Positions 20,348-36,001 of a stretch of DNA of 64,000 bases are shown here, one piece after another. Location of the stretch: positions 1 to 64,000 of IMG/VR virus record IMGVR_UViG_3300033183_000212, one strand, 5' to 3'. Under the pieces are notes generated by a model, which worked only from the letters and a program-made list of their open reading frames with translations, was not told the DNA's origin and searched no databases. This stretch comes from a virus. Within the stretch, counting starts at the first letter, position 1; each line of letters opens with the position of its first letter. A program made the position numbers and the translations under genes.

Positions 20348-20370
20348 TAAAAATATAAACTTTTGATATA

Positions 20371-23393: not shown

Positions 23394-23402
23394 AATACCT
23401 CC

Positions 23403-23987
23403 CTAGTTGGCTAGTGGATTATCCAAAGCCTCCTTGATTTTCTGGTCCATTTCTTTCTTGACTTCTTTAAGTCCTGTATCTACTTCTTTCTGTAGATCTC
23501 TCATCTCATTTCTCGCTACCTTCAAGTCAGCGTCAACTTGACGTTGCTGTTCTTTAGTTGAACGCTCTATACTTTCTACTACCTTCTCTACTCTACGAAT
23601 ATCACTCTTTAAATCATTTTTAATCTCATTTGTGTATTCTGTAGATTGTTGAACGTTGGCAGCAATGCCTTCCATCTTCTTGTCGACAGCAGTCAATCGC
23701 TCGTTGATACTACTGAGATCAGGAGCAACATATTCTTGGATCTGTTGCTTCATTTCCATATAATCTTTGTAAACTTCAAACGCACCATACAGCGAGCCAA
23801 CGCCAGCTGATATGATTGCGAACGCTGCGCTGATAGTCATCGCAGTCATCTTGATACCGAACAGACGAAACTCTTTGTTCTTGAGACCTTCTATCTCTTG
23901 TTCAAAGTTTTCAATACCTTCGCCTAGATCTTTACTTGCCATCTTCCTTCTCTTTTTGTTTTGTTTGTTCTTTGAGTTGTCTTCCAA
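23403..23987 (-). CDS. coiled-coil protein with one TM helix
   Basis: TM segment MTAMTISAAFAIISAGVGSLYGAF followed by a long heptad-like region. Confidence 0.5.
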   Translation of the reverse strand: MEDNSKNKQNKKRRKMASKDLGEGIENFEQEIEGLKNKEFRLFGIKMTAMTISAAFAIISAGVGSLYGAFEVYKDYMEMKQQIQEYVAPDLSSINERLTAVDKKMEGIAANVQQSTEYTNEIKNDLKSDIRRVEKVVESIERSTKEQQRQVDADLKVARNEMRDLQKEVDTGLKEVKKEMDQKIKEALDNPLAN

Positions 23988-24066
23988 TTGGAGTGTTCCT
24001 ATTTGGTGGATAAGGAATTCCTTCTTTCGGTTTGGGTCTGTGTTTAAACCAGCTCATTGAACCTCC

Positions 24067-25500: not shown

Positions 25501-26245
25501 CTTCTTTCTTTACTTCATGTTTAGGGATACGATCAGGGTGTGCTTCCCAAGCTAACTTGGCAGCGTTACCGATCATGCCTTCAAACGGACAGGGCGTACC
25601 AGCGTGCCACATTGCATCAAAGATTCTTCTGTCTTGACACATCGTCGCAACTGCTGCCACCTTCATACCCATGTCATACAATGTCTTAGCGTTCTTCAAT
25701 CTCTCACAGTTCAAGTCTCTTACAGTTGAACCACCAGAGATGCCAAGGATCTGAGTCTGAACTGCACCACTTACACCAGTCGTACACAAGTCATTACCAC
25801 CACCACTCATCATCGATGGTGCTACGGCTGTAGGAGGCGGAGACTTAACAGTTTGTTCTACCTTAGAGTCGTTGATGTTACGATTCGTCATGTCACCAGA
25901 GTTTACATTCTGATTGACATTAGTATTTGAATTCGTATTAGTACTTGTACTCGTACTTGTGTTTGTGTTGACATTCGTATTATTATTTGTATTAGTCGAC
26001 GTTGCTGTGCTTGTAGACGTCGATGTATTGGTATTATTATTTGTGTTTGTCGCAGACGAAGTACTGTTCACCGTCGTGTTGTTGGTGTTAGTATTCGTGT
26101 TTGTGTTGGTATTTGTATTGGTGCTTGTGACAGTGCTCGTAGATGTGGAACTGTTGTTCGTATCTACGAGTGTTGTGCTATCATAGGTTTGAGCACTTAC
26201 AGAAGCTGCAACACATAATATAGTCGCAGCGATGATTTTACGCAC
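25436..26245 (-). CDS. secreted Thr/Asn/Ser-repeat protein with a C-terminal TM anchor
   Basis: GTG start with a GGAGGA SD. Signal peptide RKIIAATILCVAASVSAQ, about 85 residues of TNTNTN/TSTSTS, a Cys-rich domain and the C-terminal anchor IGIGLGIAAVLGVVF. Confidence 0.6.
   Translation of the reverse strand: MRKIIAATILCVAASVSAQTYDSTTLVDTNNSSTSTSTVTSTNTNTNTNTNTNTNNTTVNSTSSATNTNNNTNTSTSTSTATSTNTNNNTNVNTNTSTSTSTNTNSNTNVNQNVNSGDMTNRNINDSKVEQTVKSPPPTAVAPSMMSGGGNDLCTTGVSGAVQTQILGISGGSTVRDLNCERLKNAKTLYDMGMKVAAVATMCQDRRIFDAMWHAGTPCPFEGMIGNAAKLAWEAHPDRIPKHEVKKEDDTFQKIGIGLGIAAVLGVVF
25903..26158 (-). repeat. imperfect (ACN-AAY)n coding micro-repeat encoding the TN/TS tract
   Basis: The plus strand reads gtatt(t/a)gt(a/g)tt(g/a)gt... 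repeatedly. It also creates the spurious VLVLV ORF at 25914-26186. Confidence 0.7.
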
Positions 26246-26321
26246 GATTTCCTCCGGTTATATTTATGAATATGATATAACATAACTGAAGGTGTTCAAG
26301 TCGCTTCCCAAGCTTCAATTC

Positions 26322-26333
26322 TATTTATAAATA
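26322..26333. promoter_or_regulatory. palindromic TATTTATAAATA: back-to-back TATAAATA boxes on both strands
   Basis: Lies in the divergent intergenic region between the minus block (start 26245) and the plus genes (26340, pstS). Confidence 0.45.
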
Positions 26334-26339
26334 ATTTAA

Positions 26340-26456
26340 ATGGATTTGCTAGCCTTCTGGAAACAATGGTACTTTGTCGGTGGATTCTCCACAGGCTTTC
26401 TTATTGCCTGTTGTCTGATAGGCATCATCTATCTACTGTTTAAGATTTACAGATGA
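26340..26456 (+). CDS. 38-aa small membrane protein (MDLLAFWKQWYFVGGFSTGFLIACCLIGIIYLLFKIYR)
   Basis: Below the track cutoff. The ATG lies 7 nt after a TATAAATA box. One TM helix. Confidence 0.35.
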   Translation: MDLLAFWKQWYFVGGFSTGFLIACCLIGIIYLLFKIYR

Positions 26457-26539
26457 GAAGAAAATATTTAATCTCTCTGTAACATAGTCTCCGATATATA
26501 CGAATGTAAGGATGTCCTTACTAATGTTTAGGAGAAAAA

Positions 26540-27403
26540 ATGAAATCAATCCTCGCAGTCCTTGCTGCTACAGTCACGATCACAGCACAGGCAGCAATCA
26601 CTGGCGCTGGTGCGTCATTCCCGGCTCCGGTCTACTTCAAGTGGGCTGAGGCATATAAACAAGCGACTGGTAAAGAAGTTAATTATCAGTCAATCGGTTC
26701 GTCCGGTGGTATCAAACAGATCGTTAAGAAGACGGTCGACTTTGGTGCTTCGGATGTTGCACGTAAACAAGCTGACCTCGATAAGGATGGTCAAGTACAA
26801 TTCCCCACAGTGATGGGTGGAGTTGTTGTCGTTGTCAATCTACCAGGCGTGGAGAAAAACCAGATCAATCTTACAACCGATCAAGTCGGTAAGTTGTTTG
26901 CAGGGAAGGTAAGCAACTGGAAAGATTTGGATTCTTCGTTGCCTGACCTACCTGTGACAGTTGCACACAGAGCTGATGGTTCTGGTACGACTGCAATCTT
27001 CACAACCTACCTTGCAGAGAACGCCAAAGACTTTCATCTGAAAGCTGGTAAGTCTGTTAAGTGGGAAGGTAACACTGTTGGTGGTAAGGGTAATGCCGGT
27101 GTTGCGGCTATGGTCTCTAAGATCAAAGGAGCAGTCGGCTATGTGGAATATGCTTTTGCTAAACAAAACAATCTTACGACAACTACTCTCAATGGAGTAG
27201 CACCAAGTGCCGATACGTTCAAGTCAGGTGACTGGGACATCACTGCACAGACATTCATTATTGTATACCCCGATGGTAAGAATACAAAAGAGGTTTACAA
27301 GTTCTTTGAATGGTGTTATAATAATGACCAGATTGCAGAAGGTCTAGATTATGTTCCTCTGTCAGAAAAGACAAAGAACGAGTCAAGAAAACTTTGGCAA
27401 TAA
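26540..27403 (+). CDS. pstS: phosphate ABC transporter substrate-binding protein PstS
   Basis: Signal peptide plus ITGAGASFPAPVYFKWAEAYKQATGKEVNYQSIGSSGGIKQI and GSGTT. AGGAGAA SD. Confidence 0.9.
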   Translation: MKSILAVLAATVTITAQAAITGAGASFPAPVYFKWAEAYKQATGKEVNYQSIGSSGGIKQIVKKTVDFGASDVARKQADLDKDGQVQFPTVMGGVVVVVNLPGVEKNQINLTTDQVGKLFAGKVSNWKDLDSSLPDLPVTVAHRADGSGTTAIFTTYLAENAKDFHLKAGKSVKWEGNTVGGKGNAGVAAMVSKIKGAVGYVEYAFAKQNNLTTTTLNGVAPSADTFKSGDWDITAQTFIIVYPDGKNTKEVYKFFEWCYNNDQIAEGLDYVPLSEKTKNESRKLWQ

Positions 27404-27479
27404 ATAAATTATGGATCTGACGAGCAGTAATGTGTCGTCTTCACCGGATGCCTAGAGCGAGCAAACCCAGCTATCGGAT

Positions 27480-27830
27480 CCTAAAACATGGCTCACCCCT
27501 CTGCCTAGTGTACGGGTGGGTTCTCTTATATTGCTGTATGAAGCAATGAGAAAGGTGTCTTGGACGGCGGTTCGATTCCGCCCACCTCCACCATAAGGGT
27601 ACTAAGATAAGCTTGGTACTCGATGCATAGGGAACGCCTCCTCTGGTATCCTTATGATGGGGGTGTACTGGTTTCGACAGGGCAATGAGTAACAGAGTGG
27701 ACAGCACGTCAGGCGATCGACGTTAATGAAGCGAAAACTATAAATGCCAATGATGAGGTATTTTTGATGGCAGCTTAGTGCTAGATGGGGATTCGCAGGT
27801 GTTCCTTATTACCCAAACACCTGCACTATC
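27480..27830 (+). ncRNA. ssrA: circularly permuted (two-piece) tmRNA gene. The acceptor piece ends at CCA 27591-27593, the coding piece starts at 27659, and the tag ORF is 27746-27778.
   Basis: ggacggcggttcgattccgcccacctccacca is a T-arm plus acceptor 3' strand plus ACCA. 65 nt downstream, gggggtgtactggtttcgacaggg is the tmRNA 5' consensus. 27659-27665 pairs with 27583-27589 and includes a G3:U wobble. Resume frame: GCC AAT GAT GAG GTA TTT TTG ATG GCA GCT TAG = ANDEVFLMAA*. The outer ends are approximate. Confidence 0.8.
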
Positions 27831-27832
27831 AT

Positions 27833-27840
27833 TATAAATA
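27833..27840 (+). promoter_or_regulatory. T4-type late promoter box TATAAATA
   Basis: Exact octamer 8 nt before the desaturase ATG. Confidence 0.35.
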
Positions 27841-27848
27841 GTTATATT

Positions 27849-28481
27849 ATGGAAACAATAATCATAGCAATTATATTAGGTCTTGTATGGAGCCAAGTGA
27901 TATCGCATTTTGGCGCTAGTATATTATTACACCGATATTATTGTCATAAACAATTTAAAGTGCCAAAATGGTTTGAATGGGTTGGTTTATCCATGTTAAT
28001 GATTGCATGTATAAGAACACCAATAGGATGGATTGCATCTCATCGAATGCATCATGCATATTCAGACGGCCCTAAAGATCCTCATTCTGTAAAATACGTA
28101 GGATTCTGGAAAGTTTTATTTACTATGTGGGATATTCCAAAAATACCTATTAAATTTGCAAAGGATTTGTACCAAAATAAGACACTGGTATTTTTCCATA
28201 ATAATTGGCTAAAAATATTGATCTTTGTTTGGATTATATCCTATCTAATCAGCCCATATTTTTTTATTTCGTTTGCTCTTACACCATTTATTTTTGCTAA
28301 AATAGGATTTGGTTTATTAAATACTGTTGGACATAAAAACGGTCCAAGTAATGTGCCGTGGTTGAATCTTTTTATTGCTGGGGAAGGCTATCATAAAAAT
28401 CACCATGATAATGGTAAAAGAATTAGATTACATAAATTTGATACCGGTGGGTGGATAGCTGAAAAGGTATTTAAACCATGA
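27849..28481 (+). CDS. membrane fatty-acid desaturase (delta-9/stearoyl-CoA desaturase family, short form)
   Basis: Three His boxes: HRYYCH, HRMHHAYSDGPKDPH and GEGYHKNHH. Multiple TM segments. Confidence 0.8.
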   Translation: METIIIAIILGLVWSQVISHFGASILLHRYYCHKQFKVPKWFEWVGLSMLMIACIRTPIGWIASHRMHHAYSDGPKDPHSVKYVGFWKVLFTMWDIPKIPIKFAKDLYQNKTLVFFHNNWLKILIFVWIISYLISPYFFISFALTPFIFAKIGFGLLNTVGHKNGPSNVPWLNLFIAGEGYHKNHHDNGKRIRLHKFDTGGWIAEKVFKP

Positions 28482-29101
28482 AAAAACATGAATTGCCTTT
28501 AGTTGCTGAATTTGATTTAAAAATTGATCTACTAAGACTTAAAGAAGCATCAGACAATATAGCTTACACATATACTAATGTAATTGATGCAAATCCGGGA
28601 TTATGTATGAATCATAAGGAACTCGTAAAAAATGTATATGATAATTTTGAACAAATTAATTTGACAACAGCATCTGAAATTTTATCATCAACAACTTCAA
28701 TCAAAGAAAGATTAAAACGTAAAGAAGAACATCTATTTAATGTTCCAACCAAAAATTATACTAATAGTATTTTTGAAGAAATAGTAACACAATTAAAAGC
28801 ACCTGCAAGTAGAGTTAGACTTACTAAATTAGCAGCTGGAAAGGAAATTCCTTTTCACGTTGATTATGATGTTAATTATGCTGTAAGATGTATTGTTCCA
28901 ATTTACACAAATACAAAAGTAATCAATCAATTTAAAATTGCTGATAAAATTGAAAGTTATAATTTAGAAGCTGGTAAAGCTTATTTTTTGAATATAGGTT
29001 ATCCACATAGAGTGCATAACAATTCAAATGAAGATAGAATTGCGTTAATGTTTAGTTTGGATGGAACAGATGATTTGGAATCATTTAGAAATAGCAGATG
29101 A
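28478..29101 (+). CDS. cupin-fold 2OG/Fe(II) hydroxylase (Asp/Asn beta-hydroxylase-like), paralog 1
   Basis: IPFHVDYDVNYAVRCIVPIYTN ... GYPHRVHNNSNEDRIALMFSL. Confidence 0.55.
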   Translation: MKKHELPLVAEFDLKIDLLRLKEASDNIAYTYTNVIDANPGLCMNHKELVKNVYDNFEQINLTTASEILSSTTSIKERLKRKEEHLFNVPTKNYTNSIFEEIVTQLKAPASRVRLTKLAAGKEIPFHVDYDVNYAVRCIVPIYTNTKVINQFKIADKIESYNLEAGKAYFLNIGYPHRVHNNSNEDRIALMFSLDGTDDLESFRNSR

Positions 29102-29858
29102 AGTTCAAAATAAAGGCTATAAAGTTTTTAATGATATAGAATTTTCTGAACAACAATATATTGATTTTATGAAAGGCTTTGGTGAGTTAGAAGCACCAGG
29201 CCTTTTTATGAATCCAAAAAAATATCCTCAGTTGTTTATTGTTACCGGAATGAAAGATAAAGAAGGTAACAAAATTGGCATGTTTGGAGATGGCGAATTA
29301 GGTTGGCATTCAAATGGTAATAGCCGACATTTAATTGATAAAATTTTAATCAGTTTATATTGTGTACAAGGTGATCCTAATACTACACTAAGTGTATGCA
29401 ATACCTCAGATCCATTTTACCATCTTTCCGAAGAAGAACAAGAATACTGGAAATCAATTACTATTCGTTTAAAATTTCAGAATGATACAATGTATCATTT
29501 GGATGAAGATGATCCTGAATTAGAATTCATGAGTAAAAATAAAGGTAGTATTCGTAAACTGGTTGATGTTCATCCCCATACCGGAAAGTATTATTTCTAT
29601 TTCCCTTATCATTTTATTGTTAAAGCATGGGAAGGTAAAAGGCAAATCAATCATGAAAAAATGATTGAAAAATTGAAACCAATTATATTTAGAAGCAAAT
29701 ATCAATATCATCATATTTTTATGAAAGGTGATATGCTTTTAATGGATCAGTTTACTACACTACATAGAAGAACACCAGTGATGGGTAACAGACTTTTATG
29801 GAGAATTGCAGGGGATTATCAAAACGTATGCAAGGCGAACAAATCAAACGAAAGTTAA
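29061..29858 (+). CDS. TauD/TfdA-family 2OG/Fe(II) dioxygenase-like protein with H-S-N in place of HxD
   Basis: LGWHSNGN, LVDVHPHTGKYYFYF and GDMLLMDQFTTLHRR align with TauD blocks WHxD, HP.tG and GD..iWDN...H. Confidence 0.55.
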   Translation: MEQMIWNHLEIADEVQNKGYKVFNDIEFSEQQYIDFMKGFGELEAPGLFMNPKKYPQLFIVTGMKDKEGNKIGMFGDGELGWHSNGNSRHLIDKILISLYCVQGDPNTTLSVCNTSDPFYHLSEEEQEYWKSITIRLKFQNDTMYHLDEDDPELEFMSKNKGSIRKLVDVHPHTGKYYFYFPYHFIVKAWEGKRQINHEKMIEKLKPIIFRSKYQYHHIFMKGDMLLMDQFTTLHRRTPVMGNRLLWRIAGDYQNVCKANKSNES

Positions 29859-30700
29859 AAGCGTATCCTTGGGTTGATATTCCATGTCATAAAGATGTTT
29901 TGTTTCTATTAAAAGAACAAGATTTATCTCAGACATATTATAAACGTGGAAGCGGTAAAGCAACTCGTGATTTAGATAAAGTTGAAAAAGCACATCGAGA
30001 ATGGGTTAATGATATTATAGACCTATCGGAGTTTCCTCATTGCTATTTTACTAATGGTATAACAGATGCAATTCATCTTTGGCGAATAATAGAAACCAGG
30101 CCTTGGCAAAAATTCGATGGCGATTATCAATATATAAATATAATAGGTTCTGAGAGTTCTATTTGTTATGACGCATCAGACATTGATTTAAATAAACCAT
30201 TATATGTCTCAATTCCATCTGCTATTGATGGTAATATATTTGATTTAGATGACATTAGTGCTCCAGTTATTCTAGATTGCACATATGTAGGATCTACACA
30301 AATTAAAAAAATTAAAGTACCAAAAAACACAGAACAAGTGTTCTTTAGTTTCTCAAAAGGGTTTGGACTGATAGGACAGAGACTAGGCTTAATATATACA
30401 AAAGAGCCACACCCAATCTTAGATAGATTAAAAAAATTCGAAAACTGGAATTATGCAGGAGTAAAGACTATTGAATTATTGATTAATAATTTTAAAGTCG
30501 ATACTATGTGGAATAGATATAGAAAAAGACAATTAAAGATTTGTAGTCAATATAATTTTGAACCATCTGATTGTTTCTTTCTAGCAACTACAAAAGATGC
30601 ATATTATGCAAAACGGAGAAGGATGAAATTCAGCGACGATGCTCGTATTTGTATAACACCTCTATTTGATGATTACTTAAGTACAGAGAATAGTAAATGA
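29828..30700 (+). CDS. PLP-dependent aminotransferase-like protein (short)
   Basis: FFSFSKGFGLIGQRLGLIY matches the SxSK..G..G.R.G PLP-lysine block. The start is uncertain (29798 or 29828). Confidence 0.45.
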   Translation: MQGEQIKRKLKAYPWVDIPCHKDVLFLLKEQDLSQTYYKRGSGKATRDLDKVEKAHREWVNDIIDLSEFPHCYFTNGITDAIHLWRIIETRPWQKFDGDYQYINIIGSESSICYDASDIDLNKPLYVSIPSAIDGNIFDLDDISAPVILDCTYVGSTQIKKIKVPKNTEQVFFSFSKGFGLIGQRLGLIYTKEPHPILDRLKKFENWNYAGVKTIELLINNFKVDTMWNRYRKRQLKICSQYNFEPSDCFFLATTKDAYYAKRRRMKFSDDARICITPLFDDYLSTENSK

Positions 30701-31302
30701 CTATACGAAGATTTAAATTACAATACGACATTAATAAATTTCGAGATGAAATAGATGCGCTATGGCCTTTAGAAAAATACGGGTTTCACGGTGAATTTCC
30801 TACTCCTAATGGAACATATTATCAAAATATAAGAGAAGGCGAAATGCCTTCACATTTAAGAAAAGCTATTGAAAATAGTATTGGTAAAGCAATAAAAGAT
30901 TATTATTTTTTATGGGACTGGAGATGCTTAACTAAAGTTTTGTTAAAACACAGAGATGGTTGGGAAGATGCAAAGGGCAATCCAGATGGGATTTCAGAAT
31001 TCGATAAACATGTATTTGAAGAAGATGCTGAAATAATAGGAGTTCCTCCTCTAACGGTTGTAGTAGCATTAGAAAACAATTTTAGAATTGATATTCAAGA
31101 TAGTAAAACCAGTGAATGGAGAAGCGTAACATATGGTCCTGGAGATATAATATTTTTTAATAATGCAAAAGATCTTCATGGTGGTGAAGTATTAAATGAT
31201 CCAGATAACATACCAAGGAGATCTCTTAATTGTTATGTTGGACATGACCAACTTGCTAATGATTTAACATTCTGGGATAACCCGGATTATGATAAACAAT
31301 AA
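30697..31302 (+). CDS. hypothetical protein (possible 2OG oxygenase fold)
   Basis: GDIIFFNNAKDLHGGEVL...RRSLNCYV is only suggestive. Confidence 0.45.
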   Translation: MTIRRFKLQYDINKFRDEIDALWPLEKYGFHGEFPTPNGTYYQNIREGEMPSHLRKAIENSIGKAIKDYYFLWDWRCLTKVLLKHRDGWEDAKGNPDGISEFDKHVFEEDAEIIGVPPLTVVVALENNFRIDIQDSKTSEWRSVTYGPGDIIFFNNAKDLHGGEVLNDPDNIPRRSLNCYVGHDQLANDLTFWDNPDYDKQ

Positions 31303-31930
31303 TATCCCTTGGCCAGATATCCATATTAATAATGGAATAGGTAGAGTACCACTCAAAGAAAATTATGCCTTTGAAGATATGTGGTATCTTGATACACCTC
31401 AAGCTTTACCTATTTTTGAAAAACAAGCTGATATTATTATCGAACATCAATCAAAGGGAATAGTTGATATTGGATGTAGGCATGGACCTATCCTTGATAT
31501 TTTATATAAAAGAGGATATACAAATTTCAAATATATGGGATTTGACACTTCTGAAGAACCTATCAGATTAGCTCAAGAAAAATGGACGAATTCTAATAAT
31601 ATAGAATTCCGTAATGAAAGTTGGGAAAATATGGAAACTTTCATTGTTGATTTTGATGTCGATCAAGTTATCTGGTCAGGAGTATTGTTATATAAGCCAG
31701 AAGATCATTTTAATTTTTTTAATAATATTACAAAAGATTTTTATAATGCACGTAATGCAATTATACAAGAACCTTGTAACGATCAAAAATATTGGGATGA
31801 AAGATTAATACTTAACACAATCTCTGAAGAATTTGAAATTTATAAAAAGGAATATAAATCATTTAAAGAGCATATAATCAATGCCGAAATATTTGCTGGA
31901 CGTAGAATGATAATTGATATTGAATTATGA
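31289..31930 (+). CDS. SAM-dependent methyltransferase
   Basis: Motif I IVDIGCRHGPILDIL. Confidence 0.65.
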   Translation: MINNNIPWPDIHINNGIGRVPLKENYAFEDMWYLDTPQALPIFEKQADIIIEHQSKGIVDIGCRHGPILDILYKRGYTNFKYMGFDTSEEPIRLAQEKWTNSNNIEFRNESWENMETFIVDFDVDQVIWSGVLLYKPEDHFNFFNNITKDFYNARNAIIQEPCNDQKYWDERLILNTISEEFEIYKKEYKSFKEHIINAEIFAGRRMIIDIEL

Positions 31931-32544
31931 AAATTTGCGGAATAGCTTTTAGTTACAGTAAAAACTCTATGGCTTTTCGTGGATTAAGTTTGATGAACAA
32001 TTATTTAAATTTTCAATGGTATTGCCAAGTAACAGATATTCCATTATGCAATAGTAATATTCCGGATGGTAATGTTCCTAAATCCGTAGAAAGATTATGG
32101 AATAATATGAATAAATGTGACGTATTTGTTTTCTCTATACCAGAAACAACCGGCCATTATTCAGCTGCATTTAAAAACGTAATGGATTGGTTTGTTGTTA
32201 AATCTCAATTTAATTCTGATCTTGGTCAGAAATATCCAATGTCAAATAAACCGGTTGTTGTAATAACATTTACGCCAGTTTATAAAAATGCTGGCGACAG
32301 ACATTTTAATATGACTAAACATATATTGCAAGAAAAGCTTGGCGCAGATGTCATAGATATGATAGTTAAAAACGATTGTTGGCAACATGTTATACCAAAT
32401 AACTTTGAATTTGTAGCTGAAGAATGTAAACAAATATTAAGTATACCCCTTGAAAATAAAATTATTGAAAAGCCAGACATGGCTAAAGAGGTAGATGATT
32501 GGCAAAAAAAATATAAGGAATGGAACAATAAATGGCAAAATTAG
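31927..32544 (+). CDS. flavodoxin-fold NAD(P)H-dependent FMN reductase-like protein
   Basis: MKICGIAFSYSKNS... and DVFVFSIPETTGHYSAAFKNVMDW resemble the PF03358 pattern (tPeYn.s....lKnaiDw). Confidence 0.55.
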   Translation: MKICGIAFSYSKNSMAFRGLSLMNNYLNFQWYCQVTDIPLCNSNIPDGNVPKSVERLWNNMNKCDVFVFSIPETTGHYSAAFKNVMDWFVVKSQFNSDLGQKYPMSNKPVVVITFTPVYKNAGDRHFNMTKHILQEKLGADVIDMIVKNDCWQHVIPNNFEFVAEECKQILSIPLENKIIEKPDMAKEVDDWQKKYKEWNNKWQN

Positions 32545-32966
32545 ATACTACTGGATTGTTAATTTATAAAGACAATGATTTTAAACCATTTGAAATTGAT
32601 GAAACCAAACGTTATGTAATGTGTGGAGTTCCTGGAGCATTTACGCCTGGATGTACAGAAAAACATCTTCCGGGATATGTACAAGCATTAAATCAATTTT
32701 ATGAAAAAGGTATAGATCATATTATTTTCATGGGGGTAAATGACCCATGCGTAATGGATGCATGGAATAAGTTTCATGGTCATAAAGACATCATTGCGGT
32801 TGCTGATGCTGAAGCTGAGTTTACAAAAAGAATGGGATTTGATCATGATTATGGTCCTGGAATGGGTATTCGTTGCCGCCGCTTTGCTATTTTAATTGAA
32901 AACGGTGAAATGAAAAAAGAGATGCATATTCCATTTGCTCAAGGTGCGTTAGGGGAAATTTATTGA
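32532..32966 (+). CDS. peroxiredoxin (Prx5/atypical 2-Cys type)
   Basis: VPGAFTPGCTEKHLPGY active-site block. Confidence 0.8.
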   Translation: MAKLDTTGLLIYKDNDFKPFEIDETKRYVMCGVPGAFTPGCTEKHLPGYVQALNQFYEKGIDHIIFMGVNDPCVMDAWNKFHGHKDIIAVADAEAEFTKRMGFDHDYGPGMGIRCRRFAILIENGEMKKEMHIPFAQGALGEIY

Positions 32967-33607
32967 TTGATGCCGTTGCCGAATATTTAGATATTGATTT
33001 AGAGATTGAAAAATATCATTTAATATTTGATCAAGTAAATCAAGGCTATAATACATTTGGTAAAACCGAATGGCATAGCTATTCATTAGAAGATAATATC
33101 ACTGGAAAGGATTTACCGTTCTTAGAACTGTTTGAACCAATCCTTATTGAAATGCGCAATGTGCATCCTCATATACAAAAAAGATCTACTGGTTTTAATT
33201 ATGCAAATTCTTTAGAAAAAGATTTGTTTATTCATACCGATGTAGATTATGATACAAAACACCCAAAACATTTTAATATGGTTATTCCCATATTTGGTAA
33301 AGCTATAATAAATTATTATGAAACCCGTGAAGAAGAGATTTGGTTACCAGAAAAAAATGCACATGGCTATGCATATTATCATGAATTTTATTTGCGTAAT
33401 AAATCTGGCTATGAAGAATTTAAAAAGAAAAGAAAGATTGGTGAAATTATAGTAGAAGATAAGCCGGTTTTAATTGATACTAATCTAATGCATGGTGTTG
33501 AAATCCTTAAATCTCCTCGTTGTGCTTGGGTCACACGCTGGAATAATATTCCAGTTCACCATGATTTTTATACATGGAAATCTAGAGTAGAAAGAATATT
33601 AAAATGA
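32963..33607 (+). CDS. cupin-fold hydroxylase-like protein, paralog 2
   Basis: LFIHTDVDYDTKHPKHFNMVIPIFG and LMHGVEIL resemble 28478-29101. TTG start overlaps the upstream stop. Confidence 0.45.
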   Translation: MIDAVAEYLDIDLEIEKYHLIFDQVNQGYNTFGKTEWHSYSLEDNITGKDLPFLELFEPILIEMRNVHPHIQKRSTGFNYANSLEKDLFIHTDVDYDTKHPKHFNMVIPIFGKAIINYYETREEEIWLPEKNAHGYAYYHEFYLRNKSGYEEFKKKRKIGEIIVEDKPVLIDTNLMHGVEILKSPRCAWVTRWNNIPVHHDFYTWKSRVERILK

Positions 33608-34158
33608 TGCGAGTTGTTCCGTATATAGAAAATGGAAAAAGACTGTATGTAAATGATGATTTATGTATGGATGCTTTTTTAAAAATGGAAATAGAAAGCC
33701 AAAAAGATAGACTATACAAAAATTATACTTTTAATAATTTAAAATTAAATGAAATGTATAATTTTAATTTTGTATTTGATAATGACAATCCTGTGTTAGC
33801 ATCAGGATGCCAAGTATTTAATGAGAATGTAATTAGAGTTTTTAGTAGATATTATGTATTTGATGAATATAGAACCGATGGTAAAAAATTATTAGATAAA
33901 TCAGATGACTTTATGGAATTAAAATATAGTCTTAATCTTATTAAAAAATTTCCATTAATAATATGGGCTAGAGATAAATCATCTGGTTTTTTTAAAAGAC
34001 TTAAAGCCGAAAGATCTGATATATTCAAAAATTGGCAAATACACCATGAAAAAATAGAATTAAAATATAAAAACAATTTTCATAATATATTTTATATTGG
34101 TGACATTAGTCATTTACACAACCTACAATATGAAGTCTATAGTCAAAAGAAGCGTTAA
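33604..34158 (+). CDS. hypothetical protein
   Basis: ATGA-coupled ORF. AT-rich. No motif. Confidence 0.45.
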   Translation: MMRVVPYIENGKRLYVNDDLCMDAFLKMEIESQKDRLYKNYTFNNLKLNEMYNFNFVFDNDNPVLASGCQVFNENVIRVFSRYYVFDEYRTDGKKLLDKSDDFMELKYSLNLIKKFPLIIWARDKSSGFFKRLKAERSDIFKNWQIHHEKIELKYKNNFHNIFYIGDISHLHNLQYEVYSQKKR

Positions 34159-34552
34159 CAAAAGTATGCATTTTTGTGGTATCTATTAAATAATAATTCC
34201 CATTGGCTGGGCATCTAATTATTTCATCATCTATTACAAAAAAACATTTATCATTTGTTATAAGCGGTATATGTATTCTTTTCGTATAGTCTTGATGATA
34301 TGAATAGCATGTTTTCGGCTTCATTTTCATAAGTCGAGTTCTATACATTTTTAATTCAGATATAATAGAATTTACATATGGTATATTGAATAAAAATTCA
34401 GTAAATTCATTTTCGCTATGATCTTTGTTTAATATACTTCCAGTTGCATAAAACGGATCTTTCATATTTTTTACTGTTTGTAAACCAATTTGATCATCGT
34501 AATCAGGTATTGAACTAAGTTCAAATAATATTTGATCTATATCTAACAACAT
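34106..34552 (-). CDS. cupin-fold hydroxylase-like protein, paralog 3
   Basis: YSYHQDYTKRIHIPLITNDKCFFVIDD...MHTFVNASFDYRLHIV. Confidence 0.5.
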   Translation of the reverse strand: MLLDIDQILFELSSIPDYDDQIGLQTVKNMKDPFYATGSILNKDHSENEFTEFLFNIPYVNSIISELKMYRTRLMKMKPKTCYSYHQDYTKRIHIPLITNDKCFFVIDDEIIRCPANGNYYLIDTTKMHTFVNASFDYRLHIVGCVND

Positions 34553-34965
34553 ATTGTTAATTCCATAACTCTATGTGGTTGTTTAATTATCCAATCAATA
34601 ACACTAACACAATAATCCATAGAAAGTTTTGGCTCATTTACGTCCATTGATCTTTCATTATCAATATAACCAAAATTTATACAAGTCGTATTTATGCCAA
34701 GAGAAAATATATAATGATTAGCTTCTCTAAGAGCTTTCTTTTCTACAGCATAACGATTTCTAAAAGTATAATCACTTGCTCGTGATCCAATGTTAATTAT
34801 TCTTTTTTTTAATTTTGCTGCTTTATATAACATTTCAACTTGTTGAAATCCATCATGTTTGCAATTAATGAATACATCACATTCCTCTAATGAATTACAA
34901 TTACCATAATATTTTTGTATTACCTTACCCAACCCCCGTCTTGTGCCTGTGATAAAAAATTTCAT
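34543..34965 (-). CDS. short-chain dehydrogenase/reductase-like protein (short, 140 aa)
   Basis: MKFFITGTRRGLGKVI is a TGxxxGxG Rossmann motif. Confidence 0.55.
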   Translation of the reverse strand: MKFFITGTRRGLGKVIQKYYGNCNSLEECDVFINCKHDGFQQVEMLYKAAKLKKRIINIGSRASDYTFRNRYAVEKKALREANHYIFSLGINTTCINFGYIDNERSMDVNEPKLSMDYCVSVIDWIIKQPHRVMELTICC

Positions 34966-34985
34966 AAATTAATACCTTTGATATA

Positions 34986-35014
34986 TTTACTTTCTCGTTT
35001 CAATAGTATATAAT
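34986..35014 (+). promoter_or_regulatory. cassette promoter copy 3 (TTTACT-N17-TATAAT)
   Basis: aatacctttgatatatttactttc, at the right edge of the AT-rich island. Confidence 0.65.
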
Positions 35015-35044
35015 ACAACTTCCACTGTTAAAAAGGAGTTTGTT

Positions 35045-36001
35045 ATGGTAGCAGCAGTTGAAACGATGGCCTTTGCTAGTGAAACCCCCTGGCATGGTCT
35101 CGGTGAGAAGGTCTCGAACGACTTGACCCCGAAACAGATGATGAAAAAAGCCGGGGTTGACTGGGAAGTTATTGAGGTCGAATCTTTCATCGAGTTCAAC
35201 GACAAGAAAATCCCTACCGGTGACAAGTCGCTAGTTCGCTCGACTGATGGTAAAGTCTTGACCAACACTGGTCCTGGCTGGAAACCAGTTCAGAACGAGC
35301 AAGCATTTGAGTTCTTCTCTGAATATGTATACGCCGGTGACATGGAAATGCATACCGCTGGTTCGTTGAAAGACGGTCGGATGGTGTGGGCTTTGGCAAA
35401 AGTCAAAGAATCCTTTGAGCTCTTCAAGGGTGATGAGGTTGAGTCGTACCTCCTGTTCTCGAATCCACATCAGTACGGCAAGTGTATCGATGTTCGATTC
35501 ACGCCGATCCGCGTAGTGTGTAACAACACGCTGACTCTTGCGCTCGAGGTTGAAGCTCAACGAGGTGTCCGCATTGGTCACCGCTCAGAGTTCGATCCTG
35601 ACATGGTCAAGCAGCAGCTTGGTCTAGCTCATGAGAAGTTTGCTAAGTATCGTGAGATGGCTGAGTTCTTGGGCAGCAAGCAGTTCAAGATGGAAACTCT
35701 CATCAACTACTACAACGACGTCTTTCCTCGTACCACGGACAAGCGTGTGCAAGGCAAAGAGCTGTCTGTTGAGACTCTGTCTCGTCCGGCTCGCATGGCC
35801 TTCGATGTCCTTGAGTCACAGCCTGGATCTGAGTTTGCCAAGGGTTCTTGGTGGCAGGCCTTCAACTCAGTGACTTATGTCACTGACCACCTGCAGGGTC
35901 GTAGCCAAGAGACTCGACTCTACTCGAGCTGGTTTGGTGGCAATCAACTCCGTAAGAGGAACGCCATCAACACGGCGGTAGAGTACGCTGAGGCAGCCTA
36001 A
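35045..36001 (+). CDS. DUF932 (phage/plasmid-like TIGR03299) protein, GC-rich cassette cargo
   Basis: ETPWHGLG...DWEV...GWKPVQNEQAFEFF...AGSLKDGRMVWALAKV...VVCNNTL is typical of DUF932. AAAGGAG SD downstream of cassette promoter copy 3. Confidence 0.75.
   Translation: MVAAVETMAFASETPWHGLGEKVSNDLTPKQMMKKAGVDWEVIEVESFIEFNDKKIPTGDKSLVRSTDGKVLTNTGPGWKPVQNEQAFEFFSEYVYAGDMEMHTAGSLKDGRMVWALAKVKESFELFKGDEVESYLLFSNPHQYGKCIDVRFTPIRVVCNNTLTLALEVEAQRGVRIGHRSEFDPDMVKQQLGLAHEKFAKYREMAEFLGSKQFKMETLINYYNDVFPRTTDKRVQGKELSVETLSRPARMAFDVLESQPGSEFAKGSWWQAFNSVTYVTDHLQGRSQETRLYSSWFGGNQLRKRNAINTAVEYAEAA

What the first reader, a model, noticed from the sequence alone, without database searches (positions are those of the whole stretch)
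27833..34965. AT-rich 7-kb island of oxygen- and redox-dependent tailoring enzymes next to the tmRNA gene
**Seen in the sequence.**
- Composition drops sharply. Two 60-nt samples gave 33% and 27% GC, against 37-50% in gp43 samples.
- The drop runs from just after the tmRNA to the cassette promoter at 34986.
- The last two genes of the island are inverted.

The island encodes:
- a three-His-box membrane desaturase
- three paralogous cupin hydroxylases (H.D...H cores at 28478, 32963 and 34106c)
- a TauD-like protein
- a PLP-lysine-box protein
- a SAM methyltransferase
- an FMN reductase-like flavoprotein
- a Prx5-type peroxiredoxin
- a short SDR
- two unknowns

**Established.** tRNA and tmRNA genes are frequent boundaries of horizontally acquired islands. 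2OG oxygenases are common marine-phage auxiliary genes.

**Inference.** This combination looks like one coherent pathway rather than scattered auxiliary genes. It pairs a desaturase, multiple hydroxylases, an aminotransferase and a methyltransferase with their own reductant (FMN reductase) and peroxide protection (peroxiredoxin). The product could be a modified lipid (for example a hydroxylated or aminated acyl chain or an ornithine-type lipid) or a modified peptide. I cannot name the product.
Basis: partly seen in the sequence, partly recalled or inferred. Interest (0 to 1): 0.7.

Follow-up and report, generated by a model that had tools for sequence, protein, structure and literature searches.

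The report
Mobile iron-oxygenase operon in marine phages
The AT-rich 7-kb stretch is real and is one copy of a gene cassette (a membrane desaturase, several iron-dependent hydroxylases, a PLP enzyme, a methyltransferase and redox helpers) that marine T4-like phages carry and swap as a unit; what it makes is still unknown.

Summary
From 27,827 to 34,976 the GC content is 0.30 against 0.43 in the rest of the window. Third-codon-position GC (GC3) is 0.18 against 0.44. The stretch holds ten overlapping + strand genes and two inverted genes, directly after a permuted tmRNA.

Ten of the twelve gene assignments hold up, two of them with reservations (the TauD-like protein has an unusual metal site; the SDR call rests on weak evidence). 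Two genes stay unassigned.

The claim that this is one coherent unit is strongly supported. The gene set recurs in Pelagibacter phage Mosig and in 79 non-redundant uncultured viral contigs. It appears in 55 gene orders and in three genomic contexts. The core is desaturase, AAH hydroxylase, TauD-like protein, PLP enzyme and methyltransferase.

The claim that the tmRNA marks an integration boundary is not supported. The window's closest backbone relatives carry the cassette in the same slot (gp41, thyX, c50, [cassette], DUF932) without a tmRNA.

The low GC is best explained by allele replacement. Genes w2 to w9 are 75-91% identical to a copy on an unrelated backbone (L089), but only 36-75% identical to the copies in backbone relatives.

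The function is unknown. I favour tailoring of a host envelope lipid or aminolipid (probability about 0.35). The FMN reductase and peroxiredoxin would then support the iron enzymes. An amino-acid-derived metabolite and protein hydroxylation are live rivals.

The parts
27468..27849 (+). Permuted (two-piece) tmRNA gene. It is the left neighbour of the island and belongs to the backbone, not the cassette.
   Evidence: ARAGORN. Rfam RF01850 at 133 bits and RF04321 at 142 bits. GC is 0.47-0.50. Backbone relatives lack it at this site.
27827..34976 (.). The AT-rich cassette as a whole: 12 genes, with no intergenic space between the ten + strand genes.
   Evidence: GC and GC3. blastn homology to L089 runs 27,900-30,679 (80.0%) and 31,298-34,971 (76.3%), with nothing outside those spans.
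27849..28481 (+). w1: short (210 aa) membrane di-iron desaturase of the SCD/DesC type.
   Evidence: Pfam FA_desaturase 1.2e-10. HRxxxH, HRxHH..DPH, NxxxH and GEGxHxxHH are invariant in 14 sequences down to 32% identity. It is the only island protein with hydrophobic segments.
28478..29101 (+). w2: soluble cupin of the Asp/Asn beta-hydroxylase family, the family of LpxO, OlsC and AspH.
   Evidence: Pfam PF05118 2.2e-10. H127xD129...H177 and R187 are conserved in at least 95% of 56 homologues.
29061..29858 (+). w3: TauD/TfdA-family protein with a non-canonical His-x-Asn...His metal motif.
   Evidence: Pfam PF02668 5.3e-19. H83-S-N85, H235 and R248 are conserved in at least 95% of 92 homologues.
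29828..30700 (+). w4: fold-type I PLP enzyme resembling HisC, CobD and BacF (aminotransferase or decarboxylase). The ORF opens at 29,798; the public gene call is 290 aa.
   Evidence: The SFSKGFG lysine, D, N, Y and R are invariant. Profile against PDB: 3p1t, E = 7.6e-4. AF2 pLDDT 85; Foldseek 3fkd, E = 3.6e-12, TM 0.6.
30697..31302 (+). w5: unassigned protein with an invariant HxD...H..RR motif. It occupies the slot that holds a second TauD paralogue in most other loci.
   Evidence: Alignment. Only weak hits to the C-terminal parts of BBOX and WelO5, E = 0.25-0.7. No profile similarity to the TauD paralogue. Found in 5 of 79 loci.
31289..31930 (+). w6: class I SAM-dependent methyltransferase.
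   Evidence: Pfam Methyltransf_31 and Methyltransf_25. Motif I DxGxxxG and D86 are conserved.
31927..32544 (+). w7: NAD(P)H-dependent FMN reductase-like flavoprotein.
   Evidence: Pfam FMN_red 7.5e-15. PDB 1rtt.
32532..32966 (+). w8: Prx5-type peroxiredoxin.
   Evidence: Pfam Redoxin 1.2e-22. C41 of the PGAFTPGCT motif and R117 are conserved.
32963..33607 (+). w9: double-stranded beta-helix (JmjC/cupin-like) putative 2OG/Fe(II) oxygenase.
   Evidence: No Pfam or PDB sequence hit. H91xD93...H177 is invariant in 29 sequences. AF2 pLDDT 89. Foldseek finds TYW5, JMJD5/7, FIH and KanJ at E about 7e-5 with TM 0.35-0.46.
33604..34158 (+). w10: conserved protein of unknown fold and function, with no conserved His or Cys.
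   Evidence: No Pfam, NCBIfam, PHROG or PDB hit. Present in 35 of 79 loci.
34106..34552 (-). w11: second Asp/Asn beta-hydroxylase-family cupin (inverted).
   Evidence: Pfam PF05118 2.5e-8. 30% identical to w2. H86xD88...H129 is conserved.
34543..34965 (-). w12: truncated SDR-like protein of 140 aa (inverted).
   Evidence: TGxxxGxG, S61, Y72 and K76 are conserved. Profile against PDB finds FabG-type reductases at E = 0.02. No Pfam hit.
34977..34993 (+). Backbone promoter-like repeat at the right edge of the island.
   Evidence: Exact 17-mer at 20,362, 20,566, 34,977 and 36,167, against 0.57 expected by chance.

Best explanation
**What it is (shown).** The segment is one allele of a conserved, horizontally mobile operon. 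It sits in the hypervariable slot after the replication genes of marine T4-like phages.

Its core genes are:
- a short membrane SCD/DesC-type di-iron desaturase
- an Asp/Asn-hydroxylase-family cupin
- one to five TauD-like proteins
- a HisC/CobD-like PLP enzyme
- a SAM methyltransferase

Its common accessories are:
- the block FMN reductase, Prx5 peroxiredoxin, JmjC-like cupin
- a second AAH cupin paired with a short SDR
- the unknown protein w10

**How the window got its copy (shown by incongruent similarity and composition).** An AT-rich version of genes w2 to w9, related to L089, replaced the resident cassette by recombination. The tmRNA neighbour is incidental.

**How it works (inferred).** The operon is expressed in the infected cell.
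- The soluble TauD-like/PLP pair, the AAH cupins and the methyltransferase would hydroxylate, transaminate or decarboxylate, and methylate an amine-bearing head group or precursor.
- The membrane desaturase would act on an acyl chain.
- The result would be a hydroxylated or desaturated envelope lipid, of the aminolipid or lipid A type.
- The FMN reductase would supply electrons or keep the iron centres ferrous.
- The peroxiredoxin would remove H2O2 from uncoupled turnover.
For: **Conserved unit.**
- Eight of the twelve proteins have homologues (35-75% identity) in one Mosig cluster.
- 79 non-redundant loci hold at least 4 cassette genes. Of these, 57 hold all five core genes within 3.4-11.6 kb, in 55 arrangements.
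- Seeding independently with the PLP enzyme recovers the desaturase in 41 of 49 new loci and TauD in 47 of 49.

**Mobility.**
- The cassette occurs in three backbone contexts.
- The window's w2 to w9 are 75-91% identical to L089, which shares no backbone gene. They are 36-75% identical to the copies in backbone relatives L002, L117 and L071, whose gp41 is 71-81% identical.
- Nucleotide homology to L089 stops at the island edges.
- In other loci the cassette GC is usually 0-4 points below its flanks (once 5). Here it is 13 points below.

**Operon.** Start and stop codons overlap along all ten + strand genes.

**Lipid reading.**
- The anchor gene is an integral-membrane desaturase with every SCD-type metal ligand.
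- The characterised bacterial AAH-family enzymes LpxO, OlsC and OlsD are lipid 2-hydroxylases. Ornithine lipids are also modified by a di-iron hydroxylase and a methyltransferase (PMC12971839).
- In the two probably cellular homologous clusters (Bdellovibrionales MAGs), the desaturase sits between AAH genes. One of them (L084) also holds a strong FA_hydroxylase, PF04116, at 1.8e-23.
- Phage DesC-like desaturases with proven delta-9 activity exist (PMC5776448).

**Support role.** FMN reductase with Prx (26 loci) and Prx with w9 (33 loci) are among the commonest neighbour pairs.
Against: - No lipid-building enzyme (acyltransferase, ACP, glycosyltransferase) lies in the cassette.
- All proteins except the desaturase are soluble.
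- The tightest gene pair is TauD-like with the PLP enzyme, in 69 of 79 loci. That pairing is typical of amino-acid tailoring rather than lipid chemistry.
- The AAH proteins lack the membrane anchor of LpxO and match no NCBIfam lipid-hydroxylase model.
- The desaturase is only 210 aa. It scores 35 bits against a 400-bit cut-off for DesA, so its substrate may not be a normal acyl lipid.
- The TauD-like proteins have Asn in place of the carboxylate ligand, so they may not be ordinary hydroxylases.
- In Mosig-type genomes the cassette lies next to tail-fibre genes. In many loci it lies next to radical-SAM, SPASM and nitroreductase genes, which would suit peptide or protein modification.
- No expression or biochemical data exist.
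Confidence: 0.45

Rival explanations
1. The cassette makes or transforms a soluble metabolite derived from an amino acid. A TauD-like enzyme hydroxylates an amino acid. The adjacent PLP enzyme then carries out transamination, decarboxylation or beta-replacement. Further hydroxylation and N-methylation follow. This is the logic of capreomycidine (VioC/VioD) or carnitine biosynthesis. The desaturase would be a loosely associated passenger.
For: - TauD-like with the PLP enzyme is the commonest neighbour pair (69 of 79 loci), followed by AAH with TauD (58) and TauD with the methyltransferase (34).
- All of these proteins are soluble.
- The best structural matches of w4 are amino-acid or phospho-amino-acid enzymes: CobD, HisC and BacF.
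- TauD paralogues expand to 4-5 copies in one lineage.
- The desaturase keeps its position and orientation at the edge of the cassette while the rest inverts as a block. That hints at a separate transcription unit.
- The VioC/VioD and carnitine parallels are from my own knowledge and were not tested.
Against: - The desaturase is present in 73 of the 79 loci. Its neighbour is the PLP gene in 36 loci and the AAH gene w2 in 20.
- The desaturase and PLP gene stay adjacent even in the most distant copy, L081.
- No transporter, ligase or NRPS-type partner is present.
- The TauD-like proteins lack the canonical Asp ligand.
Confidence: 0.22
2. The oxygenases hydroxylate macromolecules. The targets could be phage structural proteins such as tail fibres, host or phage translation components, or a ribosomal peptide, as AspH, FIH, JMJD5/7 and TYW5 do. 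The cassette would then be a post-translational modification toolkit.
For: - The AAH family is named for protein Asp/Asn hydroxylation.
- The nearest folds to w9 are protein or tRNA hydroxylases: TYW5, JMJD5, JMJD7 and FIH.
- In Mosig-type genomes the cassette abuts tail-fibre genes. In context B it abuts an Mtd_N-type fibre gene.
- Neighbouring genes in many loci are radical-SAM, B12-radical-SAM, SPASM-like and nitroreductase genes, which are typical peptide maturases.
- tRNA or tmRNA genes flank the cassette in several loci.
- The AAH family is reported as core to all pelagimyophages (PMC7029224).
Against: - A membrane fatty-acid-type desaturase and a PLP enzyme have no obvious role in protein hydroxylation.
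- There is no room for a precursor-peptide gene inside the window's cassette, because the genes overlap.
- The Foldseek TM-scores for w9 are low (0.35-0.46), so the match shows the fold, not the substrate.
- The radical-SAM genes are absent from the window.
Confidence: 0.15
3. There is no common pathway. The genes are independent oxygen, iron and redox auxiliary genes that have piled up in a recombination-prone hypervariable slot. They travel together only because they are physically adjacent.
For: - The slot is the known hypervariable region of these phages (PMC7029224).
- Accessory content varies widely between loci, and 55 arrangements are seen.
- Many different HxD...H families come and go.
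- Some loci lack the desaturase altogether (L093, L094, L102, L133).
Against: - The same five families stay together across three unrelated backbone contexts and despite shuffling.
- Eight genes were exchanged as one block.
- Genes overlap as if translationally coupled.
- The families are nearly absent from cellular genomes. The desaturase has 8 hits in 185,579 species genomes, so these are not repeated independent captures from hosts.
Confidence: 0.15
4. The island is an assembly artefact: a metagenomic chimera that joins a 43% GC phage to the cassette of a 30% GC phage.
For: - The window comes from a single metagenomic contig. An identical desaturase is found on one JGI contig of 146,617 bp.
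- The compositional jump is unusually large, 13 points against at most about 5 elsewhere.
Against: - Two precise misjoins would be needed, both at gene boundaries, in sequence that shares no long identical stretch with the known relatives. The best is about 80% identity.
- Backbone relatives have a cassette at exactly this position.
Confidence: 0.03

Closest known systems
Gene cluster Mosig_00072 to Mosig_00081 of Pelagibacter phage Mosig EXVC030M (MT647606)
   Same: It has eight homologous genes in one block: desaturase 75%, AAH 66%, TauD 71%, PLP enzyme 36%, methyltransferase 50%, FMN reductase 50%, Prx 48% and w9 54%. Its composition is the same (Mosig GC 30%, PMC7892664). Of 50,697 GenBank phage records, Mosig is the only one that matched any of the four searches made: the island DNA and the desaturase, PLP and AAH proteins.
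   Different: The gene order differs. Mosig has a GNAT-like gene and a different first AAH gene. It lacks w5, w10, w11 and w12. Its cassette lies beside tail-fibre and radical-SAM genes instead of beside thyX and the tmRNA. Its genes were annotated singly. No paper I found describes the cluster as a unit.
Cyanophage-encoded DesC-like delta-9 lipid desaturases, vFAD-I and vFAD-II (Roitman et al., PMC5776448)
   Same: Both are phage-borne membrane desaturases of the delta-9 (DesC/SCD) type with the three His boxes, found in marine T4-like myophages. For the cyanophage enzymes, activity on host membrane lipids was shown in yeast.
   Different: The vFADs are described as single host-like auxiliary genes close to picocyanobacterial DesC. 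The protein here is only 210 aa. It has almost no cellular relatives. It gave no hit to any cyanophage in GenBank at E < 1e-5. It is embedded in a multi-enzyme operon.
Bacterial lipid-tailoring enzymes LpxO, OlsC, OlsD, OlsE and OlsG, which hydroxylate and methylate lipid A and ornithine lipids
   Same: The mix of enzyme classes is the same: AAH-family Fe/2OG hydroxylases, a membrane di-iron enzyme and a SAM methyltransferase, all acting on one amphiphile (PMC12971839).
   Different: No model-level match to any of these enzymes was found (NCBIfam). The AAH proteins here have no membrane anchor. The di-iron enzyme is of the SCD type, not the FA_hydroxylase type. The Ols and Lpx genes are scattered in bacterial genomes, not grouped in an operon with TauD-like and PLP enzymes.
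Hypervariable (hyperplastic) auxiliary-gene regions of T4-like cyanophages and pelagimyophages, rich in 2OG-Fe(II) oxygenases
   Same: The genomic location is the same, between the replication and structural modules near thyX and ssrA. Both are enriched in 2OG oxygenases and show cassette-like exchange (PMC7029224, PMC9004378).
   Different: Here a defined set of 5-12 genes is kept together across backbones and moves as a block. That has not been reported for the scattered 2OG oxygenase genes.
tRNA- or tmRNA-targeted genomic islands and prophages of bacteria
   Same: A compositionally foreign segment starts right after a tmRNA gene.
   Different: There is no integrase and no duplicated attachment site. 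The tmRNA is itself phage-borne. The cassette occupies the same slot in relatives that lack the tmRNA.

Membership tests
Membrane fatty-acid desaturase, delta-9 SCD/DesC type (w1) | Three His boxes plus the NxxxH and DPH ligands of the di-iron site | tested here: met
   HRxxxH, HRxHH..DPH, NxxxH and GEGxHxxHH are invariant in 14 sequences, 32-80% identical to w1. Pfam FA_desaturase scores 42 bits against a cut-off of 29.7.
Membrane fatty-acid desaturase, delta-9 SCD/DesC type (w1) | Integral membrane protein with hydrophobic helices | tested here: met
   Hydrophobic segments at residues 1-27 and about 120-157. No other island protein has any.
Membrane fatty-acid desaturase, delta-9 SCD/DesC type (w1) | Full-length architecture, equivalent to a named desaturase | tested here: not met
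   The protein is 210 aa. The NCBIfam DesA family model scores 35 bits against a cut-off of 400 and covers only 11-214 of the 385 model positions.
Membrane fatty-acid desaturase, delta-9 SCD/DesC type (w1) | Desaturation of an acyl chain at delta-9 | not testable with these tools
   Needs heterologous expression and fatty-acid analysis.
Asp/Asn beta-hydroxylase family PF05118, including LpxO, OlsC and AspH (w2, w11) | Family profile match above the curated cut-off | tested here: met
   w2 scores 41.1 bits and w11 scores 34.4 bits, against a cut-off of 22.6.
Asp/Asn beta-hydroxylase family PF05118, including LpxO, OlsC and AspH (w2, w11) | HxD/E...H iron triad and a 2OG-binding Arg | tested here: met
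   w2 has H127, D129, H177 and R187. w11 has H86, D88 and H129. All are conserved in at least 95% of homologues.
Asp/Asn beta-hydroxylase family PF05118, including LpxO, OlsC and AspH (w2, w11) | Lipid substrate and membrane association, as in LpxO and OlsC | tested here: not met
   No hydrophobic segment. w2 has no NCBIfam hit at E <= 0.01 (w11 was not scanned). The substrate itself cannot be tested here.
TauD/TfdA 2OG dioxygenases (w3) | Family profile match above the curated cut-off | tested here: met
   PF02668 scores 69.6 bits against a cut-off of 27 and covers 30-266 of the 267 model positions.
TauD/TfdA 2OG dioxygenases (w3) | Canonical 2-His-1-carboxylate triad (HxD...H) | tested here: not met
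   The motif is H83-S-N85...H235. The Asn is conserved in at least 95% of 92 homologues, paralogues included.
Fold-type I PLP enzymes, aminotransferase class I/II (w4) | Family profile match above the curated cut-off | tested here: not met
   Aminotran_1_2 scores 15.9 bits against a cut-off of 19.7, E = 0.0075.
Fold-type I PLP enzymes, aminotransferase class I/II (w4) | The fold, plus the Schiff-base lysine in the SxSK motif with the conserved Asn, Asp, Tyr and Arg | tested here: met
   AF2 model pLDDT 85. Foldseek matches 3fkd, 9jfb, 1uu1 and 6l1l at E down to 3.6e-12, TM about 0.6. K177, D150, Y153 and R185 are invariant, and N136 is conserved in at least 90% of sequences (numbering of the 290-aa form).
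Class I SAM methyltransferases (w6) | Profile match and motif I | tested here: met
   Methyltransf_31 scores 35.6 bits against a cut-off of 27. D60xGxxxG66 and D86 are conserved.
NAD(P)H-dependent FMN reductase PF03358 (w7) | Profile match above the cut-off | tested here: met
   55.3 bits against a cut-off of 24.
Peroxiredoxin, Prx5 subfamily (w8) | Redoxin fold match, peroxidatic Cys in PGAFTPGC and a conserved Arg | tested here: met
   Redoxin scores 80.8 bits against a cut-off of 26.6. C41 and R117 are conserved. Placing it in the Prx5 subfamily rests on the motif and my own knowledge.
2OG/Fe(II) oxygenase with double-stranded beta-helix fold (w9) | DSBH fold with an HxD...H triad | tested here: met
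   AF2 pLDDT 89. Foldseek gives 88 hits at E <= 1e-3; those listed are 2OG oxygenases. H91, D93 and H177 are invariant. No sequence-level family match.
Short-chain dehydrogenase/reductase (w12) | TGxxxGxG nucleotide motif and the Ser-Tyr-Lys triad, in a Rossmann domain of about 250 aa | tested here: inconclusive
   The motifs are conserved. Only a weak profile hit, E = 0.02, and no Pfam hit. The protein is 140 aa.
Integrase-mediated genomic island at a tRNA or tmRNA gene | An integrase, and a direct repeat of the tmRNA 3' end at the distal edge | tested here: not met
   No integrase among the island ORFs or their neighbours. No such repeat.
Mobile gene cassette in the hypervariable region of T4-like phages | The same gene set in different backbones, with similarity incongruent with the backbone and edges at regulatory repeats | tested here: met
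   Three backbone contexts. w2 to w9 are closest to L089, not to the backbone relatives. The right edge lies at a promoter-like motif repeated four times.
RiPP or peptide-maturation gene cluster | A precursor-peptide gene next to the tailoring enzymes | tested here: not met
   No intergenic space and no small ORF between the cassette genes in the window. Radical-SAM and SPASM genes occur only in other loci.

The most novel reading that the evidence does not exclude
Marine T4-like phages of streamlined heterotrophs (SAR11-type hosts and relatives) carry a virus-specific, horizontally exchanged pathway. It would re-tailor the host envelope during infection by desaturating and multiply hydroxylating, transaminating and methylating an aminolipid or lipid A-like molecule. 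It would bring its own electron supply and peroxide defence. This would be the first multi-step lipid-modification pathway encoded by a bacteriophage. Its TauD-like enzymes would use an unusual His-Asn-His metal site.
Probability: 0.25. Interest if true: 0.8.

Novelty: new variant of a known kind. Interest (0 to 1): 0.6.

Why it matters
**Scale.** Phages of SAR11-type bacteria are among the most abundant viruses in the sea. A cassette that holds five or six iron-dependent oxygenases (w1, w2, w3, w9, w11, possibly w5), is kept together in dozens of phage lineages and is traded between them, is likely to matter for infection.

**New biology if it acts on the envelope.** It would show that phages do more than add one desaturase to host lipid metabolism.

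**New enzymology in any case.** Whatever the product, the cassette defines several enzyme families with almost no cellular relatives:
- a 210-aa SCD-like desaturase
- TauD-like proteins with a His-x-Asn motif
- a 290-aa PLP enzyme

**Evolution.** It gives a clear example of replacement of a whole operon between phages of very different base composition.

**Testability.** One cultured system carries the cassette: phage Mosig on Pelagibacter ubique HTCC1062. The question can therefore be tested directly.

Tried and rejected
**Donor search.** I looked for a close donor by megablast and blastn against 50,697 phage records. Only Mosig matched, at 69-77%. The best relative overall is L089, at 76-80% nucleotide identity. 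No recent donor was found.

**Cellular origin.** A pattern scan of 185,579 species genomes with the desaturase alignment gave 8 hits and none in Pelagibacterales. The best hit (L081, 60%) looks like a mis-binned phage contig.

**Unassigned proteins.**
- Curated family libraries (NCBIfam, PHROGs) gave nothing specific for w2, w4, w5, w9, w10 or w12. w11 has no PHROG match and was not scanned against NCBIfam.
- PDB sequence and profile searches gave no hit for w9, w10, w2 or the extra family cl5. They gave only generic hits for the TauD-like protein, the methyltransferase and the FMN reductase.
- Profile-profile tests were all negative: w10 against the Mosig GNAT-like protein, w5 against the second TauD paralogue, and w9 against family cl17.

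**Island edges and signals.**
- Promoter-like and terminator-like scans were at chance level (54 against 48.6 expected; 7 against 4.7). I did not use them.
- I looked for a repeat of the tmRNA end at the far edge and found none.
- I asked whether the tmRNA travels with the cassette. It does not. The tmRNAs of the window and of L053 align poorly outside the tRNA-like part.

**Source and literature.**
- The look-up of encoding contigs could not locate the source contig from the exact desaturase sequence.
- Cluster look-up gave no sample information.
- Literature searches found no description of this cassette.

**Ideas considered and not adopted.**
- Sulfonate scavenging (TauD with an SsuE-like reductase): no SsuD is present, and the TauD-like proteins are very distant from TauD.
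- DNA hypermodification: a membrane desaturase does not fit.
- Ectoine-like or carnitine-like pathways: the enzyme families do not match closely enough.

Full report
**1. The observation**

The composition drop is real and sharp. In 1-kb bins, GC is 0.26-0.33 from 28,001 to 35,000. It is 0.42 in the two bins before and 0.50 and 0.46 in the two after. In 200-nt windows the fall lies at 27,800-27,850 and the rise at 34,950-35,050. The island averages 0.297 GC and the rest of the window 0.426.

Third-codon-position GC (GC3) separates the twelve island ORFs (0.11-0.23) from 80 backbone ORFs (0.44 +/- 0.07; Mann-Whitney p = 3.5e-8). Only one other ORF, 37,054-38,430, is similarly AT-rich.

The left neighbour is a genuine permuted tmRNA:
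- ARAGORN places it at 27,501-27,869 with tag ANDEVFLMAA.
- Rfam gives beta_tmRNA at 133 bits and tmRNA_permuted at 142 bits.
- Its terminal hairpin ends at 27,826, 22 nt before the first island ATG.

Ten genes follow on the + strand with overlapping stops and starts. Two more lie on the - strand. The right edge meets the exact 17-mer TTTGATATATTTACTTT. This motif occurs four times in the window (20,362; 20,566; 34,977; 36,167) against 0.57 expected by chance. It is followed by TATAAT-like boxes, so it is a backbone promoter-like cassette.

**2. The genes**

Assignments that pass Pfam's curated thresholds:

| Gene | Coordinates | Family | E-value |
|---|---|---|---|
| w1 | 27,849 | FA_desaturase | 1.2e-10 |
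| w2 | 28,478 | Asp_Arg_Hydrox | 2.2e-10 |
| w3 | 29,061 | TauD | 5.3e-19 |
| w6 | 31,289 | Methyltransf_31 / Methyltransf_25 | 9.3e-09 / 3.1e-07 |
| w7 | 31,927 | FMN_red | 7.5e-15 |
| w8 | 32,532 | Redoxin | 1.2e-22 |
| w11 | 34,106, - strand | Asp_Arg_Hydrox | 2.5e-8 |

- **w1, the desaturase.** It carries every metal ligand of the SCD/DesC type. HRxxxH, HRxHH..DPH, NxxxH and GEGxHxxHH are invariant down to 32% identity. It is the only protein with hydrophobic segments. It is only 210 aa and far below the NCBIfam DesA cut-off.
- **w4, the 'PLP-lysine-box protein'.** It fails Pfam's threshold. It has an invariant SFSKGFG lysine and the usual Asn, Asp, Tyr and Arg. A confident AF2 model (pLDDT 85) matches L-threonine-O-3-phosphate decarboxylase, HisC and BacF at E down to 3.6e-12.
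- **w9, the third 'cupin'.** It has no sequence-level family. Its model (pLDDT 89) is a double-stranded beta-helix. The best matches are JmjC-type hydroxylases, with low TM-scores. H91xD93...H177 is invariant.
- **w12, the 'short SDR'.** It has conserved TGxxxGxG, Ser, Tyr and Lys, but only a weak profile hit.
- **w5.** It has an invariant HxD...H..RR motif and nothing more.
- **w10.** It is unknown.

One unexpected detail concerns the TauD-like proteins. They carry His-x-Asn, not His-x-Asp, in at least 95% of 92 homologues.

**3. Is it a unit?**

Yes. Of the searches I ran against 50,697 GenBank phage records (island DNA and the desaturase, AAH and PLP proteins), each matched only Pelagibacter phage Mosig. 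In Mosig, eight homologues lie in one block.

- Seeding IMG/VR with the desaturase gave 79 loci.
- Seeding independently with the PLP enzyme gave 49 further loci. Of these, 47 carry TauD, 42 AAH, 41 the desaturase and 40 the methyltransferase. Most of the exceptions are contigs cut short.
- After removing duplicates, 79 loci hold at least four cassette genes.
- Of those, 57 hold all five core genes within 3.4-11.6 kb, in 55 arrangements.
- The commonest neighbour pairs are TauD with PLP (69), AAH with TauD (58), desaturase with PLP (36), TauD with methyltransferase (34), Prx with w9 (33), FMN reductase with Prx (26) and AAH11 with SDR (21).

Other loci add more proteins of the HxD...H type:
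- a 2OG-FeII_Oxy_3 family and a further AAH family
- two unknown families with the same motif
- a weak GNAT-like protein

The cassette occurs in three backbone contexts:
- after gp41, thyX and c50
- after an Mtd_N-type fibre gene
- between radical-SAM genes and tail-fibre genes, as in Mosig

The desaturase family is almost absent from cellular genomes. It has 8 hits in 185,579 species genomes. In the two probably cellular clusters (Bdellovibrionales MAGs) it sits with AAH and radical-SAM genes; L084 adds a strong FA_hydroxylase and a B12-radical-SAM gene.

**4. Why is the window's copy so AT-rich?**

In other loci the cassette's GC is usually 0-4 points below its flanks (once 5), over a range of 0.29 to 0.45. 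Low GC is therefore not intrinsic to the cassette. The window's 13-point gap is unique.

The window's backbone is a T4-like myophage:
- gp41 helicase at 17,838
- ThyX at 19,628
- DUF932 at 35,045
- DUF6267 at 38,670

Its gp41 is 68% identical to Phage C48C1 and about 62% identical to cyanophages and Melnitz.

Its closest relatives among the fetched contigs are L002, L114/L117, L071 and L065, with gp41 65-81% identical. They have the cassette in the same slot: gp41, thyX, c50, [cassette], DUF932, DUF6267. They lack the pstS gene, the tmRNA and the - strand block that the window has between c50 and the cassette.

The window's w2 to w9 tell a different story:

| Protein | Identity to L089 | Identity to backbone relatives |
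|---|---|---|
| w2 to w9 overall | 75-91% | 36-75% |
| FMN reductase | 80% | 36-40% |
| Prx | 88% | 48-50% |
| w9 | 87% | 48-51% |

L089 shares none of the backbone genes. Nucleotide homology to L089 (76-80%) stops at the island edges and skips w5.

The simplest reading is this: a resident cassette was replaced, at least in its central 5-6 kb, by an allele from an AT-rich phage lineage. The tmRNA is a separate backbone acquisition. Two-piece tmRNAs near thyX are already known in this phage group (PMC9004378). There is no integrase and no attachment-site repeat. Only one other locus (L053) has a tmRNA next to the cassette. It lies on the opposite side and is not closely related.

**5. How it may work**

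Shown: an operon that encodes one membrane di-iron enzyme, four to five cupin-type iron enzymes, a PLP enzyme, a methyltransferase, a flavin reductase, a peroxiredoxin and an SDR-like protein. It is co-inherited and co-transferred.

Inferred: the enzymes act in one pathway. I favour a lipid or aminolipid target (about 0.35 for the substrate; 0.45 for the explanation as a whole), for four reasons:
- The near-constant anchor gene (73 of 79 loci) is a membrane desaturase.
- The characterised bacterial AAH enzymes LpxO, OlsC and OlsD hydroxylate lipid acyl chains. Ornithine lipids are further modified by a di-iron hydroxylase and a methyltransferase (PMC12971839).
- The probably cellular homologous clusters pair the desaturase with AAH genes, and one adds an FA_hydroxylase.
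- Phage delta-9 desaturases acting on host lipids are known (PMC5776448).

The FMN reductase could feed the desaturase or re-reduce iron. The peroxiredoxin would deal with H2O2 from uncoupled turnover. Both roles are inference.

Against the lipid reading:
- All other enzymes are soluble.
- No acyltransferase is present.
- The tightest pair, TauD with PLP, suggests amino-acid chemistry.
- The AAH and JmjC-like folds, together with the tail-fibre and radical-SAM neighbours, would also suit protein or peptide modification.

**6. Comparison with what is known, and novelty**

The pieces are familiar: auxiliary genes in the hypervariable region of T4-like phages, 2OG oxygenases, phage desaturases and phage tmRNAs. 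I found no description of this cassette as a unit. Its genes in Mosig are annotated one by one.

I rate it a new variant of a known kind. It is an uncharacterised, widespread, mobile multi-oxygenase operon. One cultured model system exists.

**7. Verdict**

The coherent unit holds. The tmRNA-bounded island does not. The product is unknown.
- Interest: 0.6.

Noticed in passing
window 27468-27869: The phage-borne two-piece (permuted) tmRNA scores best with Rfam's betaproteobacterial model (133 bits) and has the tag ANDEVFLMAA. No glutamine riboswitch of the kind reported upstream of the Melnitz tmRNA reached Rfam's gathering threshold anywhere in the window. The type may hint at a Burkholderiales or OM43-like host.
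   Followed up: partly
window 29061-29858 and its 92 homologues in the fetched loci: The TauD-like proteins of the cassette have His-Ser-Asn where the family has His-x-Asp. The Asn is conserved in at least 95% of sequences, including the paralogues. A neutral Asn in the iron triad is unusual and unexplained.
   Followed up: partly
window 37054-38430: A second, single-gene AT-rich islet. It is a 458-aa ORF with GC 0.32 and GC3 0.20. It has no Pfam match and matches only PHROG 1462 of unknown function. Among the fetched loci it has one weak tblastn match (26% identity, L061).
   Followed up: partly
window 20362, 20566, 34977, 36167: An exact 17-mer, TTTGATATATTTACTTT, sits inside a longer AATACTTTTGATATATTTACTTT element. 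It is followed by TATAAT-like boxes and strong ribosome-binding sites. It looks like a repeated early-promoter cassette of the backbone and a possible recombination site.
   Followed up: partly
window 22929-27403: Between the conserved c50 gene and the cassette, the window has a block absent from its backbone relatives. The block consists of four - strand ORFs (22,929-26,245) and a PstS-type phosphate-binding protein (26,540-27,403; PBP_like_2, 3e-38). Three of the - strand ORFs have no assigned function; the fourth has only sub-threshold Pfam matches. GC skew and AT skew turn negative over 23-26 kb.
   Followed up: partly
L001 1-4177, L033, L057, L059, L007 (flanks of the cassette): In Mosig-type and other loci the cassette is flanked by several radical-SAM proteins, a SPASM-like protein, a nitroreductase-family protein, a PP-loop/QueC-like ATPase and a B12-binding radical-SAM protein. 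This may be a second tailoring system or a 7-deazaguanine-type system next to the cassette.
   Followed up: no
L081 (JAFMBV010000002.1, labelled as a Bacteriovoracaceae MAG): This 118-kb, 35% GC contig carries two desaturase paralogues, the PLP enzyme (43% identity), a TauD-like gene, and radical-SAM families shared with the phage loci. It is probably a T4-like phage contig binned into a bacterial MAG.
   Followed up: partly
L084 5496-14586 and L088 6698-11105 (Bdellovibrionales MAGs): These are probably cellular clusters. L084 reads AAH, FA_hydroxylase..., AAH, short SCD-like desaturase (about 30% identity), radical-SAM..., B12-radical-SAM; L088 has the AAH, desaturase and radical-SAM genes followed by two more AAH genes. 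They are the only non-phage setting found for this desaturase family and a possible route to its substrate.
   Followed up: partly
L120-L132, L139: A divergent cassette lineage (desaturase about 50% identical) carries four to five TauD-like paralogues in a row.
   Followed up: no
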